Shown piece by piece: positions 11,677 to 14,469 of a stretch of 63,168 nt of DNA. Where the stretch lies: the IMG/VR virus record IMGVR_UViG_2526164633_000022, positions 1 through 63,168 of that record; one strand, given 5' to 3'. The notes under the pieces were generated by a model. It was not told the DNA's origin and did not search any database. It saw nothing but the letters and a program-made list of their open reading frames with translations. The stretch's first letter is position 1; every line of letters begins with the position of its first letter. This stretch comes from a virus (Duplodnaviria; Heunggongvirae; Uroviricota; Caudoviricetes). The translations under genes were made by a program, and so were the position numbers.

Positions 11677-12750
11677 TCAAGCCTTAAGAGGCTTTGTGTA
11701 TGTTCGTGTAATCCAACCAGTAATAAACTCATCCCCTGATTTAACCTGCACGTAAAGCCATTGACGATCTTTCTTATCTAAAATAGCAACAATTGTGTTT
11801 TTGCCAATGCATTCAATCACTTCACTATTTAAAGAAGGGCCGACATGCAACCTTACGTTATCACCTGTTATAGCTCTAAAATTATTAAGATCCTCCCACT
11901 GAATATCTTTATTTTCTTGTGTTAGCTTTTGCTTAGATATTGGCTTATCCTCATTTAGAGATAGAAGATATGATTCCATCTTGTAAATTTGCGATAATGT
12001 CTTTTCTTTTGCATAATCAGTTATAGCGCCAAGCACCACTTGATAAAAAATCCACAGAAGGAAGATCTGAATAGGAGAAGGAAGCGCCTTAAATGAATCA
12101 AAAAACGTCGAACTAGATTTATTAAATCCTTTGTTTTGATGCTCACTTTCGGTATGCGCTGATTTTATAGAATCATTAGCATAAGCCTGCGCGATAGTAA
12201 CAAGCCCAAGCTCTACTACTTGCTCTAATAATACACTTCTTGTTTTATTATACTGCTTTATTACTTCTTTAATATCTTTGCTTATCTTAATTTTGTAATT
12301 TATATTAGAGTGTAATTCTTTAAATACCTCCTCCATATTATTTAAGCCAGCTATCTTATTAATGGCTTCTGAGTGTTTTCGTAACGGCATAGCCATTTCA
12401 GCTTGATTTTTAATTATTTGAATATGCTCATTTGCATCACTGGGAAAAGCCGCCTGATACTGTTTCTGTAAAAATACCATTTGTTCACGAAACTGGTGTG
12501 CAATTCTCGTAACTTTTGGTAAAGACTCAAGTTCTTTTCGAAAACAATCATTAATTAATTCTTGTTTTTTAACTGTTCCAAACTGTTTAACTAAACTCTT
12601 GTAAATATATTCTGAATTTAATAAACCACTTATCTTTTTATGCCTCACTCCTTTAATTTCATTTAAATAATCATAAAAGGCAGTGCCTTCAGCTTTATTA
12701 TTAGAGTTAAGCGAAATGTGTTTAATATCCTTCACTTTATTCACCGTCAT
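11677..12750 (-). CDS. Membrane protein with C-terminal SH3b-like domain (AT-rich cassette gene 3)
   Basis: 357 aa; ~20% GC locally; hydrophobic helix IQIFLLWIFYQVVLGAI; C-terminal GDNVRLHVGPSLNSEVIECIGKNTIVAILDKKDRQWLYVQVKSGDEFITGWI resembles bacterial SH3. Confidence 0.6.
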   Translation of the reverse strand: MTVNKVKDIKHISLNSNNKAEGTAFYDYLNEIKGVRHKKISGLLNSEYIYKSLVKQFGTVKKQELINDCFRKELESLPKVTRIAHQFREQMVFLQKQYQAAFPSDANEHIQIIKNQAEMAMPLRKHSEAINKIAGLNNMEEVFKELHSNINYKIKISKDIKEVIKQYNKTRSVLLEQVVELGLVTIAQAYANDSIKSAHTESEHQNKGFNKSSSTFFDSFKALPSPIQIFLLWIFYQVVLGAITDYAKEKTLSQIYKMESYLLSLNEDKPISKQKLTQENKDIQWEDLNNFRAITGDNVRLHVGPSLNSEVIECIGKNTIVAILDKKDRQWLYVQVKSGDEFITGWITRTYTKPLKA

Positions 12751-13243
12751 CTTGTTTTAAACACCCGTCATTTTTAGCTTCTGTATAAATACTGGAAATA
12801 CCATCCAGAGTGAATGATGTGATTCGACTCGAACCGATATATACATCTATGTTTTTTTCATTTGTAGATGACACTGCCTTCCAAAATGAATACCATTCCC
12901 TACGATTAGGAGCAGTGTTTTGCGTGCCAATATTAAAACTATCCGGGCCAACAATTAAAGTAATTACATCTGCTTTACGTGATATTGTGTCGCGTGTAGA
13001 AAAATCGGCATTCTCTTTTCCTCCGCTTACATACAAATTTCTTCCAGCGATATGATCTTCTGAACCTTCCCTTGCTCCAGCATCACAAGAAAAGTTAATT
13101 GTGTAACCATCGTCATTGGTTGCAGAGATTTCTCTCCACCCTTGCTCACCTCCTACCGTCCAAACGGTAGAACCTGCCATTGCTGATAATGGCAGAAAAG
13201 AGGACATTAATAAAAAGCTATACAATGACTTATACAATTTCAT
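12737..13243 (-). CDS. Secreted protein (AT-rich cassette gene 2)
   Basis: 168 aa; signal peptide MKLYKSLYSFLLMSSFLPLSAMA; stop overlaps next gene start by 14 nt. Confidence 0.6.
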   Translation of the reverse strand: MKLYKSLYSFLLMSSFLPLSAMAGSTVWTVGGEQGWREISATNDDGYTINFSCDAGAREGSEDHIAGRNLYVSGGKENADFSTRDTISRKADVITLIVGPDSFNIGTQNTAPNRREWYSFWKAVSSTNEKNIDVYIGSSRITSFTLDGISSIYTEAKNDGCLKQDDGE

Positions 13244-13331
13244 ATTTTTATCCTTTTGTTTTTAGATATTATAGGCATAGTCCATATTGTTAGATCCACT
13301 ATGCCCAGAGAATTTAATATTATTTATTAAA

Positions 13332-13823
13332 TTATGGGGCTACACCCGGCCCCCTAGCTCGTTCTTCAAGCGTACCCTGTACGTTTTGATGGCGCATTCC
13401 TGGGGCATTTCTTATTGAGTCAATGCCATTTCTTCCAACATCTTCTTTATTAACGGCATTGCTCGCCACCAGCACACCCCAGCTAGGGATAGCAAAATCA
13501 GGAGCGGTTTCGCATGCCTTTACCATATAATCGAAAGTGCTTCGATTGATCTCGTTTGCGTCGGGATTTAATAGGCGAGAATATTGATATTTAGCATTTT
13601 CGTTGGTTGCGACTTTATATAGTTCTTGCTGCACCATCGCTTCAGAAAGTTTAAGACGTTTCATATCTGACAGTAACTTCTTGCGCATGGATTCGTCTTG
13701 ACTGACAGCAAAGCCGTAAACGTGCCCAAGGTATTTCGTATAATCGGTACAAATCTCCTTCACGCTTGATGCTGCATTAACAGTCCCAGCCATAAATAAT
13801 AACGGTAGTAATAGTTTTCTCAT
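13332..13823 (-). CDS. Secreted protein with Sit-derived C-terminal motif (AT-rich cassette gene 1)
   Basis: Start taken at MRKLLLPLLFMAGTVNA signal peptide (track ORF 13332..13850); C-terminus PGMRHQNVQGTLEERARG matches Sit GMRREVVQGTLEERARG. Confidence 0.6.
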   Translation of the reverse strand: MRKLLLPLLFMAGTVNAASSVKEICTDYTKYLGHVYGFAVSQDESMRKKLLSDMKRLKLSEAMVQQELYKVATNENAKYQYSRLLNPDANEINRSTFDYMVKACETAPDFAIPSWGVLVASNAVNKEDVGRNGIDSIRNAPGMRHQNVQGTLEERARGPGVAP

Positions 13824-13918
13824 TATAACCTCACCTGCCTTATAACTCATTTAGGGTACATATTTTCGCCTTTAAAAAAAGAGGTTATTAGATCCAATTG
13901 TGCATTTATTAAACAAGC

Positions 13919-13935
13919 AATGCTCTAATAAATTT
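13919..13935 (+). promoter_or_regulatory. C1 operator-like 17-mer upstream of c4-icd-ant
   Basis: AATGCTCTAATAAATTT matches recalled P1 C1 operator consensus ATTGCTCTAATAAATTT. Confidence 0.7.
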
Positions 13936-14104
13936 GTATTTTTAAGTCGCGAATGCTATCTTTTCGCATCATATTGACCTTTTAATCGTTCAGGCTTATA
14001 GTTCCGCCGTCGTAGCAAATTCTGCGACCGGGTTTAGCAGCCTGAATACTTACGCGGACAACCGCAGATTTCCGATATTGCGGTATTTTTGTGTCCGTAA
14101 ACCA

Positions 14105-14190
14105 CGTTACGCCCGAATTATGGTGGGGCGTGATGGGGAGGCTTCGGCCTGCTGGTTTCGTAAGTGCCAGTCTGCTAACCCCGTCACGTC
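14105..14190 (+). ncRNA. c4: c4-like antisense immunity RNA (approximate bounds)
   Basis: Between operator and icd; contains CTGCTAA complementary to the repeated TTTAGCAG at 14033 and 14201; bounds not determined. Confidence 0.4.
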
Positions 14191-14247
14191 CTGCCACCTG
14201 TTTAGCAGCGGGTCGCAGGTTGTTTATCAACTTACGAGGCCGTAACT

Positions 14248-14469
14248 ATGGTTAATGCCAATCCTTGCGCACGCCAAGAATTCATCTGGCGTTTCTATTC
14301 CTGTAAAAAACACCACTATCACTTCGTTATCGCTGCAACAGAAGACGAAGCACGCTCTCAATTGCCTGATGGCCCCTGCATTTTTACTGCCCGTTTTTCA
14401 ACTAACTCGCGCAATTCACTTAGTTACTGGAACCTCCCCTTCTCTGCCGACGTTCAGGGGGGTTTATGA
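14248..14469 (+). CDS. icd: Small protein upstream of antirepressor (Icd-like)
   Basis: 73 aa; stop overlaps ant start (ATGA at 14466-14469); position as in P1 immunity region. Confidence 0.5.
   Translation: MVNANPCARQEFIWRFYSCKKHHYHFVIAATEDEARSQLPDGPCIFTARFSTNSRNSLSYWNLPFSADVQGGL

What the first reader, a model, noticed from the sequence alone, without database searches (positions are those of the whole stretch)
11677..13850. AT-rich three-gene envelope-protein cassette inserted between tail operon and immunity region
Three coupled minus-strand genes (secreted 172 aa, secreted 168 aa, 357-aa membrane protein with C-terminal SH3b-like domain) sit in sequence far more AT-rich (about 20% GC in sampled 60-mers) than the flanking ~55% GC phage genes, the signature of a horizontally acquired moron. 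All three products are predicted to act in the envelope. Location next to the DNA-injection machinery and immunity region fits a superinfection-exclusion or entry-blocking module, but none of the three has a family I can name. An operator-like 17-mer (ACTTGCTCTAATAATAC, 12218-12234) lies inside the third gene. This is my best candidate for an undescribed system.
Basis: partly seen in the sequence, partly recalled or inferred. Interest (0 to 1): 0.75.

Follow-up and report, generated by a model that had tools for sequence, protein, structure and literature searches.

The report
Mosaic envelope-gene cassette at P1 sim locus
The AT-rich three-gene block is real, but it is one of many interchangeable gene sets at a known variable spot (the "sim" superinfection-exclusion locus) of P1-like phage-plasmids; its three envelope proteins have family names but no known function, and one carries a copy of a conserved piece of the phage's own injection protein.

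Summary
The three minus-strand genes exist as described. The GC dip is real but overstated: 33-44% per gene against 47-50% in the flanks, not 20% against 55%. The window is a P1-like phage-plasmid, and the block fills the sim locus between the late promoter LPsit/pmgC and the C1 operator Op51/c4. That locus is already published as a low-GC hypervariable region. P1 carries simA-simB-simC there, and P7 carries two other genes.

All three genes can be named. Gene 1 belongs to the "SimA domain" family; P1's 52-aa SimA is only the first 50 residues of it. Gene 2 belongs to the YfjT/YkfB family (PF27224). Gene 3 is a single-pass membrane protein with a conserved C-terminal SH3b domain and a hypervariable N-terminus.

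They are not one fixed system. SimA plus YfjT-like is the widespread pair next to pmgC-tub-pmgB-sit. The SH3 gene is an optional add-on, present in about 10% of P1-like plasmids, and recombination junctions lie inside the block.

The new clue is that the SimA-family C-terminus copies about 26 residues of the most conserved segment of Sit, the injected transglycosylase/tape-measure protein (E 2.8e-11).

No known defence or exclusion family matches. Superinfection exclusion is plausible but rests on position and inference only.

The parts
13332..13850 (-). Gene 1: SimA-family secreted protein. The ORF is 172 aa; the probable true start is ATG 13823, giving 163 aa, with a GGTGAGG Shine-Dalgarno sequence. 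It is C-terminally truncated compared with the 215-220-aa form found in other elements.
   Evidence: PHROG 3933, E 2e-114. PGAP annotates a 'simA domain protein' at this position in a plasmid 99.8% identical over 11400-14300. Residues 1-50 are 94% identical to the whole of P1 SimA. The family alignment shows a conserved core with two invariant Cys. The Ro157c2YLVW and P0043 versions continue for about 45 more residues.
13338..13415 (-). Sit-like motif at the C-terminus of gene 1 (residues 146-171: IRNAPGMRHQNVQGTLEERARGPGVA).
   Evidence: tblastn against the window hits sit with E 3e-6. A profile of the Sit block scores this ORF at E 2.8e-11, and the next non-Sit ORF scores 0.16. PHROG 2533, the Sit family, matches residues 137-171. 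Only 7 of 16 identical residues use the same codon.
13244..13331 (-). 88-nt spacer between gene 1 and gene 2, with a 10-bp hairpin and the gene 2 ribosome-binding site.
   Evidence: Sequence. RNA fold is -17.6 kcal/mol with z -1.4, so it is not a convincing terminator.
12737..13243 (-). Gene 2: YfjT/YkfB-family (PF27224) periplasmic protein, 168 aa.
   Evidence: PF27224 is precomputed for the 95%-identical protein P0066 and named YfjT. hhalign of the family against E. coli K-12 YfjT gives probability 99.4%, E 4.5e-21. The AF2 model has pLDDT 83 and pTM 0.76. W28, G35, G46, C53, W117 and C161 are invariant.
11677..12750 (-). Gene 3: bitopic membrane protein, 357 aa. It has a hypervariable helical N-terminal domain (residues 1-222), a TM segment (226-245), a linker and an SH3b domain (297-351).
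   Evidence: PHROG 7086, E 1e-225. Pfam SH3_3. Alignment of 24 homologues. Hydropathy. dN/dS is 0.56-0.59 for the N-terminal domain and 0.19-0.31 for TM+SH3.
12016..12075 (-). Codons for the predicted transmembrane helix of gene 3.
   Evidence: KD19 1.75 at residues 226-244. The segment is hydrophobic in all homologues. AF2 places a helix at 224-266, at low confidence.
11698..11862 (-). Codons for the SH3b domain of gene 3.
   Evidence: Pfam PF08239 at residues 297-351, 27.7 bits (cut-off 27), with 24 of 24 family members matching. The motif RTYTKP is invariant.
12219..12235 (+). C1-operator-like site inside gene 3: the 12-nt core is exact, but 5 of 17 positions mismatch the consensus.
   Evidence: It is present only in the closest alleles (L002, L006) and absent in L005 and L010.
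13919..13935 (+). C1 operator Op51/Oc4, which controls c4-icd-ant. It lies at the right edge of the variable locus.
   Evidence: One mismatch to the consensus. It is homologous to the annotated P1 operator. The P7 junction falls here, at 13921.
13887..13913 (-). Predicted sigma-70 promoter PsimA (-35 TTTAAT, -10 TCTAAT), conserved from P1.
   Evidence: P1 annotation, mapped onto the window. It is a prediction only.
11554..11572 (-). Late promoter LPsit for pmgC-tub-pmgB-sit. It lies downstream of the cassette, so the cassette is outside the late operon.
   Evidence: P1 and P7 annotation. The window sequence has one mismatch to it.
11576..13683 (.). Segment with no DNA homology to P1, where P1 has simC+simB (1274 bp). 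The left junction at 11575-11583 is shared by all alleles.
   Evidence: blastn against P1, P7, Ro157c2YLVW and four plasmids.
6483..6623 (-). Conserved block in Sit (residues 912-958, downstream of the SLT domain at 742-847) that the SimA-family tail resembles. A second shorter copy lies at residues 993-1013 (about 6318-6380).
   Evidence: It is among the most conserved stretches of Sit: conservation is 0.81-0.88 here against 0.46-0.57 in the preceding stretch (841-900) and 0.00-0.13 just after it (961-1000).

Best explanation
What is shown: the region is this element's version of the P1 'sim' locus, a recombination hot spot between LPsit/pmgC and Op51/c4 in P1-like phage-plasmids. It holds three accessory genes that assort independently and encode envelope proteins.

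1. A SimA-family periplasmic protein. P1's 52-aa SimA is only a 5' stub of this gene.
2. A YfjT/YkfB-family periplasmic protein.
3. An inner-membrane protein whose conserved C-terminal SH3b domain probably faces the periplasm and whose N-terminal domain is hypervariable.

The genes lie upstream of the late promoter, so they are outside the late operon. They are presumably transcribed from the sigma-70 promoter next to Op51, that is, during lysogeny or early infection.

What is inferred: the most likely function is prophage-expressed protection at the envelope stage against incoming P1-like phages (superinfection exclusion), as for P1 Sim. A specific, testable step follows from the anatomy. Sit is the transglycosylase/tape-measure protein that an infecting particle ejects into the periplasm. 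The SimA-family protein displays in the periplasm a copy of the most conserved Sit segment, which lies just after Sit's SLT domain. It could therefore compete with incoming Sit for whatever that segment binds, or bind Sit's SLT domain, and so stall wall penetration or DNA entry. The YfjT-like and SH3 proteins would be further, separable envelope factors whose targets are unknown.
For: Locus identity:
- The flanks are 94-98% identical to P1. The break points are at 11575 and 13684.
- P1 has simC/simB/simA here and P7 has upf50.0/upf50.5.
- The sim region is published as a low-GC 'highly variable region' of P1-like phage-plasmids (PMC9603915).
- simABC are non-essential in P1 (PMC10695390).
- P1 Sim is cited as a superinfection-exclusion protein (PMC8546580, references to Devlin 1982 and Kliem & Dreiseikelmann 1989).

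Family assignments.

Envelope location: signal peptides, paired invariant cysteines, and a single TM segment.

Independent assortment:
- Alleles seen include SimA+YfjT-like only (Ro157c2YLVW and seven D6/P1-like contigs), SimA+116-aa TM protein+YfjT-like+SH3, and SH3 alone in a non-P1 Citrobacter plasmid.
- YfjT-like proteins are 29% identical between elements whose tail genes are 98-99.5% identical.
- SH3 dS is 0.56 while its neighbours' dS is 0.009.

Prevalence in PLSDB, out of about 628 P1-like plasmids:
- SH3 homologue in 64 plasmids.
- YfjT-like in 177.
- SimA similarity in 267, about half of them long forms.

Sit mimicry:
- Profile E 2.8e-11, tblastn E 3e-6, and a PHROG 2533 hit.
- The copied block is one of the best-conserved parts of Sit, in proteins that are only 42-52% identical overall.
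- Codon usage differs between the two copies, so this is not a recent DNA copy.
- The GMR core is near-invariant in the SimA family.
- SimA diverges at about the same rate as the tail genes between P1-like and D6-like elements and stays next to the pmgC-sit operon even where c4-icd-ant is not adjacent.
Against: - No phenotype data exist for any of the three families. YfjT is an uncharacterised y-gene.
- None is homologous to SimB/SimC or to any PADLOC model.
- P1 Sim works through SimC, which this element lacks, so the functional inference rests on position only.
- The YfjT family also occurs in P4-like cryptic prophages (CP4-57; YkfB by family name), which have no Sit. This argues against a P1-specific target for gene 2.
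- SimA/Sit motif co-variation is only suggestive. In P1-likes the counts are 7+2 concordant and 1 discordant (Fisher about 0.07, with no phylogenetic correction). In D6-likes the counts are 3 concordant, 1 partial and 3 discordant.
- Some SimA-family members keep only the short NxPGMRxQ core.
- Expression in lysogens is not shown, and the promoter is a prediction.
- The topology of the SH3 protein is inferred. Flanking charges do not favour N-in, and the AF2 model is poor (pLDDT 39.5).
Confidence: 0.5

Rival explanations
1. The three genes form one integrated, previously undescribed three-component entry-blocking or defence system, acquired as a single moron.
For: The genes are adjacent on one strand. 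Genes 2 and 3 overlap by 14 nt. All three products are envelope proteins. The same three-gene arrangement recurs in 34 PLSDB plasmids and in 31 of 5426 complete E. coli genomes.
Against: The components assort independently. Recombination junctions lie inside the block, at 12439-12564, 12494, 13344, 13606 and 13684. The SH3 allele was exchanged without its neighbours. Gene 1 is partly shared with P1, so it was not imported with the rest. GC content differs stepwise among the three genes: 0.44, 0.39 and 0.33.
Confidence: 0.1
2. The genes are lysogenic-conversion genes that alter host envelope physiology, for example stress tolerance, adhesion or peptidoglycan-linked functions, and have no role in phage exclusion.
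For: YfjT/YkfB homologues sit in unrelated cryptic prophages of E. coli K-12, next to lipoprotein genes. The only strong structural match of gene 2 among viral models is a protein labelled 'putative adhesin'. SH3b domains are general peptidoglycan-binding or wall-binding modules. The SH3 protein also occurs in a non-P1 plasmid. No defence model matches.
Against: The Sit-like tail of SimA and its conserved linkage to the sit operon point to a phage-directed role. The locus holds the exclusion genes in P1. The high allelic turnover and relaxed dN/dS of the exposed parts resemble conflict genes.
Confidence: 0.25
3. SimA and the YfjT-like protein serve the phage's own cycle, as accessories to the tail/Sit module. 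They might act, for example, in periplasmic control of lysis or of wall digestion at release or entry.
For: The order simA-yfjT-pmgC-tub-pmgB-sit is conserved across P1-like and D6-like elements whose tail proteins are only 74-82% identical. A motif is shared with Sit.
Against: The genes lie upstream of the late promoter LPsit. Their products are exported, whereas virions assemble in the cytoplasm. P1 keeps only a 52-aa stub and P7 has neither gene, yet both are fully viable phages. In P1 the locus is non-essential.
Confidence: 0.1
4. The block is decaying cargo without a current function. Gene 1 is truncated and the rest are leftovers of recombination.
For: Gene 1 lacks the last about 45 residues of the long form. 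P1's SimA is an even shorter stub.
Against: All three ORFs are intact and are maintained at 96-100% identity in dozens of plasmids from several hosts and continents. dN/dS is below 1, with strong constraint on TM+SH3 (0.19-0.31) and on SimA (0.18). The truncation falls just after the conserved motif.
Confidence: 0.05

Closest known systems
Phage P1 simABC (superimmunity / superinfection exclusion locus)
   Same: The chromosomal position is the same, between LPsit/pmgC and Op51/c4. The strand is the same and the GC is low. The products are exported. The first 50 residues of gene 1 equal P1 SimA (94% identity). The locus is dispensable.
   Different: There is no homologue of SimC, the exclusion determinant, or of SimB. 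Two unrelated genes (YfjT family, SH3 membrane protein) take their place. SimA here is a 163-172-aa protein rather than a 52-aa stub. No phenotype is known.
E. coli K-12 YfjT / YkfB (PF27224, cryptic prophages CP4-57; YkfB by PGAP family name)
   Same: Gene 2 is a member by profile comparison (probability 99.4%). Size is similar, and the signal peptide and conserved Trp and Cys positions are shared.
   Different: Identity is only 26%. The neighbourhood differs: yfjS lipoprotein in K-12, SimA here, and SimA is unrelated to YfjS. The family has no known function.
Phage T4 Spackle (periplasmic inhibitor of the gp5 tail lysozyme) and T4 Imm. This comparison rests on my own knowledge, not on a tool result.
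   Same: The concept is the same: small exported phage proteins that act in the periplasm or inner membrane of an already infected cell to stop the wall-digesting or DNA-entry step of a second phage. Sit, like gp5, is the tail-borne wall hydrolase.
Tape-measure-directed exclusion proteins (HK97 gp15, Streptococcus TP-J34 Ltp). This comparison rests on my own knowledge; related papers are listed.
   Same: These are prophage morons that encode membrane or surface proteins and block DNA entry in a way that depends on the tape-measure protein of the incoming phage.
   Different: There is no homology. Here the link to the tape-measure-like Sit is a shared peptide segment, not a demonstrated interaction.
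Bitopic peptidoglycan-binding proteins such as DamX/FtsN (SPOR) or YgiM (SH3 plus anchor, TIGR04211)
   Same: The architecture of gene 3 is similar: a cytoplasmic N-terminal region, one TM segment, and a periplasmic wall-binding domain at the C-terminus. There is a weak TIGR04211 hit over the SH3 part.
   Different: The TIGR04211 score is far below its cut-off (11 bits against 65). The domain order differs from YgiM. The N-terminal domain is hypervariable and repeat-rich and has no counterpart.

Membership tests
P1 sim (superimmunity) locus | Position between the pmgC/LPsit late promoter and the Op51 (c4) operator, transcribed towards pmgC | tested here: met
   Flanks are 94-98% identical to P1. 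LPsit is at 11554-11572 and Op51 at 13919-13935.
P1 sim (superimmunity) locus | Homologue of SimC, the processed periplasmic exclusion protein | tested here: not met
   blastp of all three products against SimC finds nothing better than E 0.1. There is no DNA homology across 11576-13683.
P1 sim (superimmunity) locus | Homologue of SimB | tested here: not met
   The best blastp match to SimB has E 7.5.
P1 sim (superimmunity) locus | Homologue of SimA | tested here: met
   Residues 1-50 of the 172-aa ORF are 94% identical to SimA residues 1-50, E 2e-33. P1's gene is the truncated form.
P1 sim (superimmunity) locus | Exclusion of superinfecting P1 after adsorption | not testable with these tools
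   This needs plating and DNA-entry assays.
YfjT/YkfB family (Pfam PF27224) | Significant match to the family model or its founding member | tested here: met
   PF27224 is precomputed for the 95%-identical protein P0066 and for syntenic homologues, where it is named YfjT. hhalign against K-12 YfjT gives probability 99.4%, E 4.5e-21. PGAP uses the name 'YfjT/YkfB family phage-associated protein'. The model is absent from the local Pfam copy.
Bacterial SH3 domain (Pfam SH3_3, PF08239) | Score at or above the gathering threshold | tested here: met
   27.7 bits against a cut-off of 27.0 at residues 297-351. All 24 aligned homologues hit, with best E 1.3e-9.
PTP-like phytase (Pfam PF14566) | Score at or above the gathering threshold, and the catalytic Cys-x5-Arg loop | tested here: not met
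   26.8 bits against a cut-off of 27, covering profile positions 46-132 only. The conserved C113-E-T-A-P-D-F stretch has no Arg at position +6. There is no PDB relative by profile.
Known anti-phage defence systems (PADLOC-DB 2.0) | Match of any component to a defence-protein model | tested here: not met
   No family at E <= 1 for any of the three proteins.
Periplasmic lysozyme/transglycosylase inhibitors (Ivy, MliC/PliC, PliG, T4 Spackle) | Fold similarity to a solved inhibitor | tested here: not met
Moron (independently transcribed accessory insert in a phage genome) | Presence/absence polymorphism among close relatives, and deviant composition | tested here: met
Moron (independently transcribed accessory insert in a phage genome) | Own promoter and terminator | tested here: inconclusive
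   Only a predicted PsimA carried over from the P1 annotation. The consensus scan found fewer promoter-like sites than shuffles did, and only weak terminator-like hairpins.
P1 C1 repressor operator | Match to the 17-bp consensus ATTGCTCTAATAAATTT | tested here: inconclusive
   Site 12219-12235 matches 12 of 17 positions, with the 12-nt core exact (0.02 expected per window). The 13 other sites have <=3 mismatches. The site is not conserved in diverged alleles. Binding needs EMSA or ChIP.

The most novel reading that the evidence does not exclude
SimA-family proteins are periplasmic decoys. They present a copy of the conserved post-SLT segment of the injected Sit protein and so block wall penetration or DNA entry by incoming P1/D6-like phages. 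This would be a mimicry-based form of superinfection exclusion, ancestral to the P1 lineage and lost from P1 itself, where only a 52-aa stub remains. The YfjT/YkfB family and the hypervariable SH3 membrane protein would be further, separately acting entry-stage factors.
Probability: 0.15. Interest if true: 0.7.

Novelty: new variant of a known kind. Interest (0 to 1): 0.4.

Why it matters
P1-like phage-plasmids are common carriers of resistance genes in Enterobacteriaceae, and what limits their spread between cells is poorly known. The sim locus is one of their few hypervariable spots, and only the P1 allele has ever been tested.

This analysis makes three points. First, the textbook 'SimA' is a remnant of a larger, widely conserved exported protein. 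Second, the commonest non-P1 content of the locus is a SimA + YfjT-like pair, which gives a first context for an E. coli y-gene family. Third, SimA shares a conserved peptide with the injection protein Sit.

The third point turns a vague 'probably exclusion' into a specific experiment: mutate the motif, then test entry of P1-like phages. If nothing comes of it, the region remains an ordinary accessory cassette of unknown function.

Tried and rejected
- Sequence searches of all three proteins and of the SimA and YfjT profiles against PDB found nothing meaningful.
- NCBIfam and PADLOC gave nothing useful.
- The AF2 model of the SH3 protein, built from a 24-sequence alignment, had pLDDT 39.5 and was unusable for fold search.
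- The afdb50 library was unavailable.
- PTP-like phytase was rejected for SimA. The score is below threshold and there is no catalytic loop.
- SimA is not related to YfjS, the K-12 neighbour of YfjT.
- The Sit-like motif is absent from SimB, SimC, the YfjT-like proteins, the SH3 proteins and the P7 proteins.
- A genome-contig scan with the YfjT alignment recovered only two near-identical copies.
- tblastn of the TM+SH3 region against 50,697 phage records gave no match.
- Strict SimA/Sit co-variation is not established.
- Hairpins after gene 1 and gene 3 are not convincing terminators.
- The Łobocka 2004 P1 genome paper could not be read.
- Literature searches found no study of this cassette, of YfjT function, or of SimA beyond annotation.


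Full report
**1. Observation**

Computed composition confirms an AT-rich island, but a milder one than claimed.
- In 300-nt windows, GC falls to 0.28-0.39 between 11600 and 13100 and to 0.39-0.42 up to 13850. The flanks are at 0.46-0.52.
- Per gene, GC is 0.327 for the 357-aa gene, 0.385 for the 168-aa gene and 0.435 for the 172-aa gene. The neighbouring phage genes are at 0.467-0.499 and the whole window at 0.476.
- Only 12% of 60-mers in the block are at or below 25% GC.

Genes 2 and 3 overlap by 14 nt. Gene 1 is separated from gene 2 by 88 nt.

Both small proteins begin with a typical export signal followed by an Ala-x-Ala site, and each has two cysteines that are invariant in its family.

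The large protein has one hydrophobic helix (residues 226-245) and a C-terminal bacterial SH3 domain. The domain scores just above the Pfam cut-off in this protein, but it is found in all 24 aligned relatives.

**2. Where this is**

The window is a P1-like phage-plasmid. The stretch 11400-14300 is 99.8% identical to plasmids of E. coli and E. fergusonii, and its flanks match P1, P7 and relatives.

Against P1, homology runs up to 11575 (98%) and resumes at 13684 (94-95%). In between, P1 has simC and simB.

On the left lies the late promoter LPsit (11554-11572), followed by pmgC-tub-pmgB-sit. On the right lie the predicted PsimA promoter, the C1 operator Op51 (13919-13935) and c4-icd-ant.

This is therefore the 'sim' locus.
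- Its variability and low GC among P1-like phage-plasmids are already published (PMC9603915).
- In P1, simABC are dispensable (PMC10695390).
- P1 Sim is cited as a superinfection-exclusion function.

**3. What the three genes are**

*Gene 1*
- It is a 'SimA domain' protein (PHROG 3933).
- Its first 50 residues are 94% identical to the entire 52-aa SimA of P1. P1's simA is therefore the 5' remnant of a longer gene that was cut when simB-simC were recombined in.
- The family has a conserved core (residues 25-140) and variable tails.
- The copy in this window is itself cut short after residue about 170. The 215-220-aa form is found in phage Ro157c2YLVW and in many plasmids.
- The likely start codon is ATG 13823, which has a good ribosome-binding site, rather than 13850.

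*Gene 2*
- It belongs to the YfjT/YkfB family (PF27224). The model is newer than the local Pfam copy, but it is attached to the 95%-identical database protein and to all syntenic homologues.
- A profile of the family aligns to E. coli K-12 YfjT with probability 99.4%.
- YfjT is an uncharacterised protein of the cryptic prophage CP4-57.
- A confident AF2 model (pLDDT 83) shows a beta-sandwich with two helices. It has no informative structural relative.

*Gene 3*
- It is PHROG 7086. Its 42 database clusters sit almost entirely on contigs of up to about 100 kb from Enterobacteriaceae; one cluster (P0011) reaches a 5.5-Mb contig.
- The TM helix, linker and SH3 domain are nearly invariant.
- The first about 220 residues are hypervariable, helical and in some members built of tandem repeats.

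None of the three matches SimB or SimC, a solved structure by sequence, or a PADLOC defence model.

**4. One system or a mosaic?**

The evidence favours a mosaic.
- Every comparison partner has a different right-hand junction: Ro157c2YLVW at 13344, CP033848 at 13606, P1 at 13684 and P7 at 13921. All share the left junction at 11575-11583. Further break points lie inside gene 3.
- Observed gene sets at the locus include SimA+YfjT-like (Ro157c2YLVW and seven D6/P1-like contigs), SimA+a 116-aa multi-TM protein+YfjT-like+SH3, the set in this window, and the same set plus an inserted DUF4760 gene.
- The SH3 protein also occurs alone, between nuclease genes, in a Citrobacter plasmid that is not P1-like at this locus.
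- Between this window and plasmid pF1273-3, SimA and the YfjT-like gene are almost identical (dS 0.009) while the SH3 gene differs at dS 0.56.
- Between elements whose tail genes are 98-99.5% identical, the YfjT-like proteins are 29% identical.
- In PLSDB, about 628 plasmids match the flanks. Of these, 267 have SimA similarity (roughly half long forms, half P1-type stubs), 177 have a YfjT-like gene and 64 have the SH3 gene.
- In complete E. coli genomes, 70 of 5426 carry part of the gene 2-gene 3 block.

The stable unit is the SimA+YfjT-like pair. It stays directly upstream of pmgC-tub-pmgB-sit even in D6-like elements where the c4-icd-ant region is not adjacent.

**5. The Sit-like tail of SimA**

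The last about 26 residues of gene 1 (IRNAPGMRHQNVQGTLEERARGPG) resemble two places in this element's own Sit protein: KFMNGRGMRREVVQGTLEERARGKG (residues 931-955) and KLRNSPGMRKNNV (residues 999-1011).

The similarity is statistically solid.
- A profile of the first Sit block, built from eight Sit proteins, was searched against all 753 stop-to-stop ORFs of the window. It finds Sit at 9e-33, gene 1 at 2.8e-11 and nothing else below 0.16.
- The PHROG model of the Sit family independently hits the same residues.

The block has these properties.
- It lies 50-110 residues after the SLT transglycosylase domain (742-847).
- It is covered by no Pfam family.
- It is one of the best-conserved parts of Sit proteins that are otherwise only 42-52% identical.
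- Only 7 of the 16 identical residues use the same codon, so the similarity is not a recent DNA copy.
- The motif is absent from SimB, SimC, the YfjT-like proteins and the SH3 proteins.
- Within the SimA family its length varies from the full about 26 residues to the short NxPGMRxQ core.

I looked for co-variation between SimA and Sit motif alleles in 17 elements. Among P1-likes there are 9 concordant pairs and 1 discordant (Fisher about 0.07, uncorrected for relatedness and linkage). Among D6-likes there are 3 concordant, 1 partial and 3 discordant. That is suggestive only.

**6. Mechanism**

Shown:
- The products are exported or membrane proteins.
- The genes lie outside the late operon.
- The locus is dispensable in P1 and highly recombinogenic.
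- The alleles evolve under constraint. dN/dS is 0.18-0.59, against 0.03-0.08 for pmgC, with the least constraint on the N-terminal domain of the SH3 protein.

Inferred:
- The genes are expressed from the sigma-70 promoter next to Op51.
- They act in the envelope of the lysogen against incoming phages, as P1 Sim does.

The only compartment and time in which SimA and Sit can meet is the periplasm of a lysogen being superinfected. I therefore propose that SimA competes with, or binds, the incoming Sit through the shared segment and stalls wall penetration or DNA entry.

My probabilities are:
- about 0.9 that the region is a mosaic sim-locus allele as described;
- about 0.45 that at least one gene confers entry-stage exclusion;
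- about 0.15 for the decoy step.

The main rival is lysogenic conversion of envelope physiology unrelated to phages. The occurrence of YfjT/YkfB proteins in P4-like cryptic prophages supports it.

**7. The operator-like site**

The site 12219-12235 holds the exact 12-nt core shared by the window's C1 operators. There are nine such cores in the window against 0.02 expected, and the other eight lie in sites with at most 3 mismatches to the 17-mer.

The flanking five positions all mismatch, and the site is missing from diverged alleles of the gene. It may be a weak C1 site or a coincidence. Only a binding assay can tell.

**8. Novelty and verdict**

Already known: the variable, low-GC sim locus and the existence of these ORFs in many database records under generic names.

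I found the following in no paper.
- P1 SimA is a stub of a conserved exported protein.
- The SimA+YfjT-like pair is the common content of the locus across P1/D6-like elements.
- The SH3 protein is an independently swapped add-on.
- The SimA tail resembles the conserved post-SLT segment of Sit.

This is a new variant of a known kind: an uncharacterised allele set at a known exclusion and hypervariable locus. It is not a categorically new system. Interest is moderate, 0.4.

Noticed in passing
window 5982-9356 (sit); loci L012-L029: Sit length varies from 1074 to 1280 aa among P1/D6-like elements. P1-likes carry a second short 'GMR' motif copy (window Sit residues about 985-1020) in an insertion that D6-likes lack. 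Some also carry an extra Gly/Ala-rich insertion before the conserved block.
   Followed up: partly
L006 (CP057476.1) 1286-2248, equivalent to window 11574/11656: A DUF4760 gene on the opposite strand is inserted exactly at the common left junction of the sim locus. This shows that the junction next to LPsit is a reusable insertion point.
   Followed up: no
L010 (NZ_CP033848.1) 1971-2321; L022 (CP056621.1) 919-1269: A 116-aa protein with three to four hydrophobic segments sits between the SimA and YfjT-like genes in another allele of the locus.
   Followed up: no
L009 (NZ_CP056338.1) 2972-4417: The Citrobacter homologue of the SH3 membrane protein has about nine tandem 17-aa repeats (LAQGSTIADSVSLSE(K/R)MTK) in its N-terminal domain. 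It stands alone between VRR-NUC and HNH nuclease genes in a plasmid that is not P1-like at this locus.
   Followed up: partly
L007 (DXHF01000172.1): A 2.8-kb contig binned as a 'Candidatus Paenibacillus intestinavium' MAG carries a 95%-identical copy of gene 2. It is most likely mis-binned Enterobacteriaceae phage-plasmid DNA.
   Followed up: no
window, 13 sites listed (e.g. 13919, 15591, 29626, 32902, 46937, 63016): There are thirteen 17-mers within 3 mismatches of the P1 C1 operator consensus, against 0.24 expected. This is the dispersed C1 operator set of a P1-type immunity system.
   Followed up: no
window 13823 vs 13850: The first ATG of the 172-aa ORF has no ribosome-binding site. ATG 13823 (Met10) follows GGTGAGG and is the start used by PGAP. 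The same probably applies to the annotated 52-aa P1 SimA.
   Followed up: partly
L023-L029, gene after sit and the 118-aa ORF: In several plasmid records the ~477-aa gene two positions downstream of sit carries the product name 'bleomycin hydrolase'. Its counterpart in the related contigs L012-L021 has a weak Gp6-like baseplate domain hit (PF21379), so the name looks like an annotation error.
   Followed up: no
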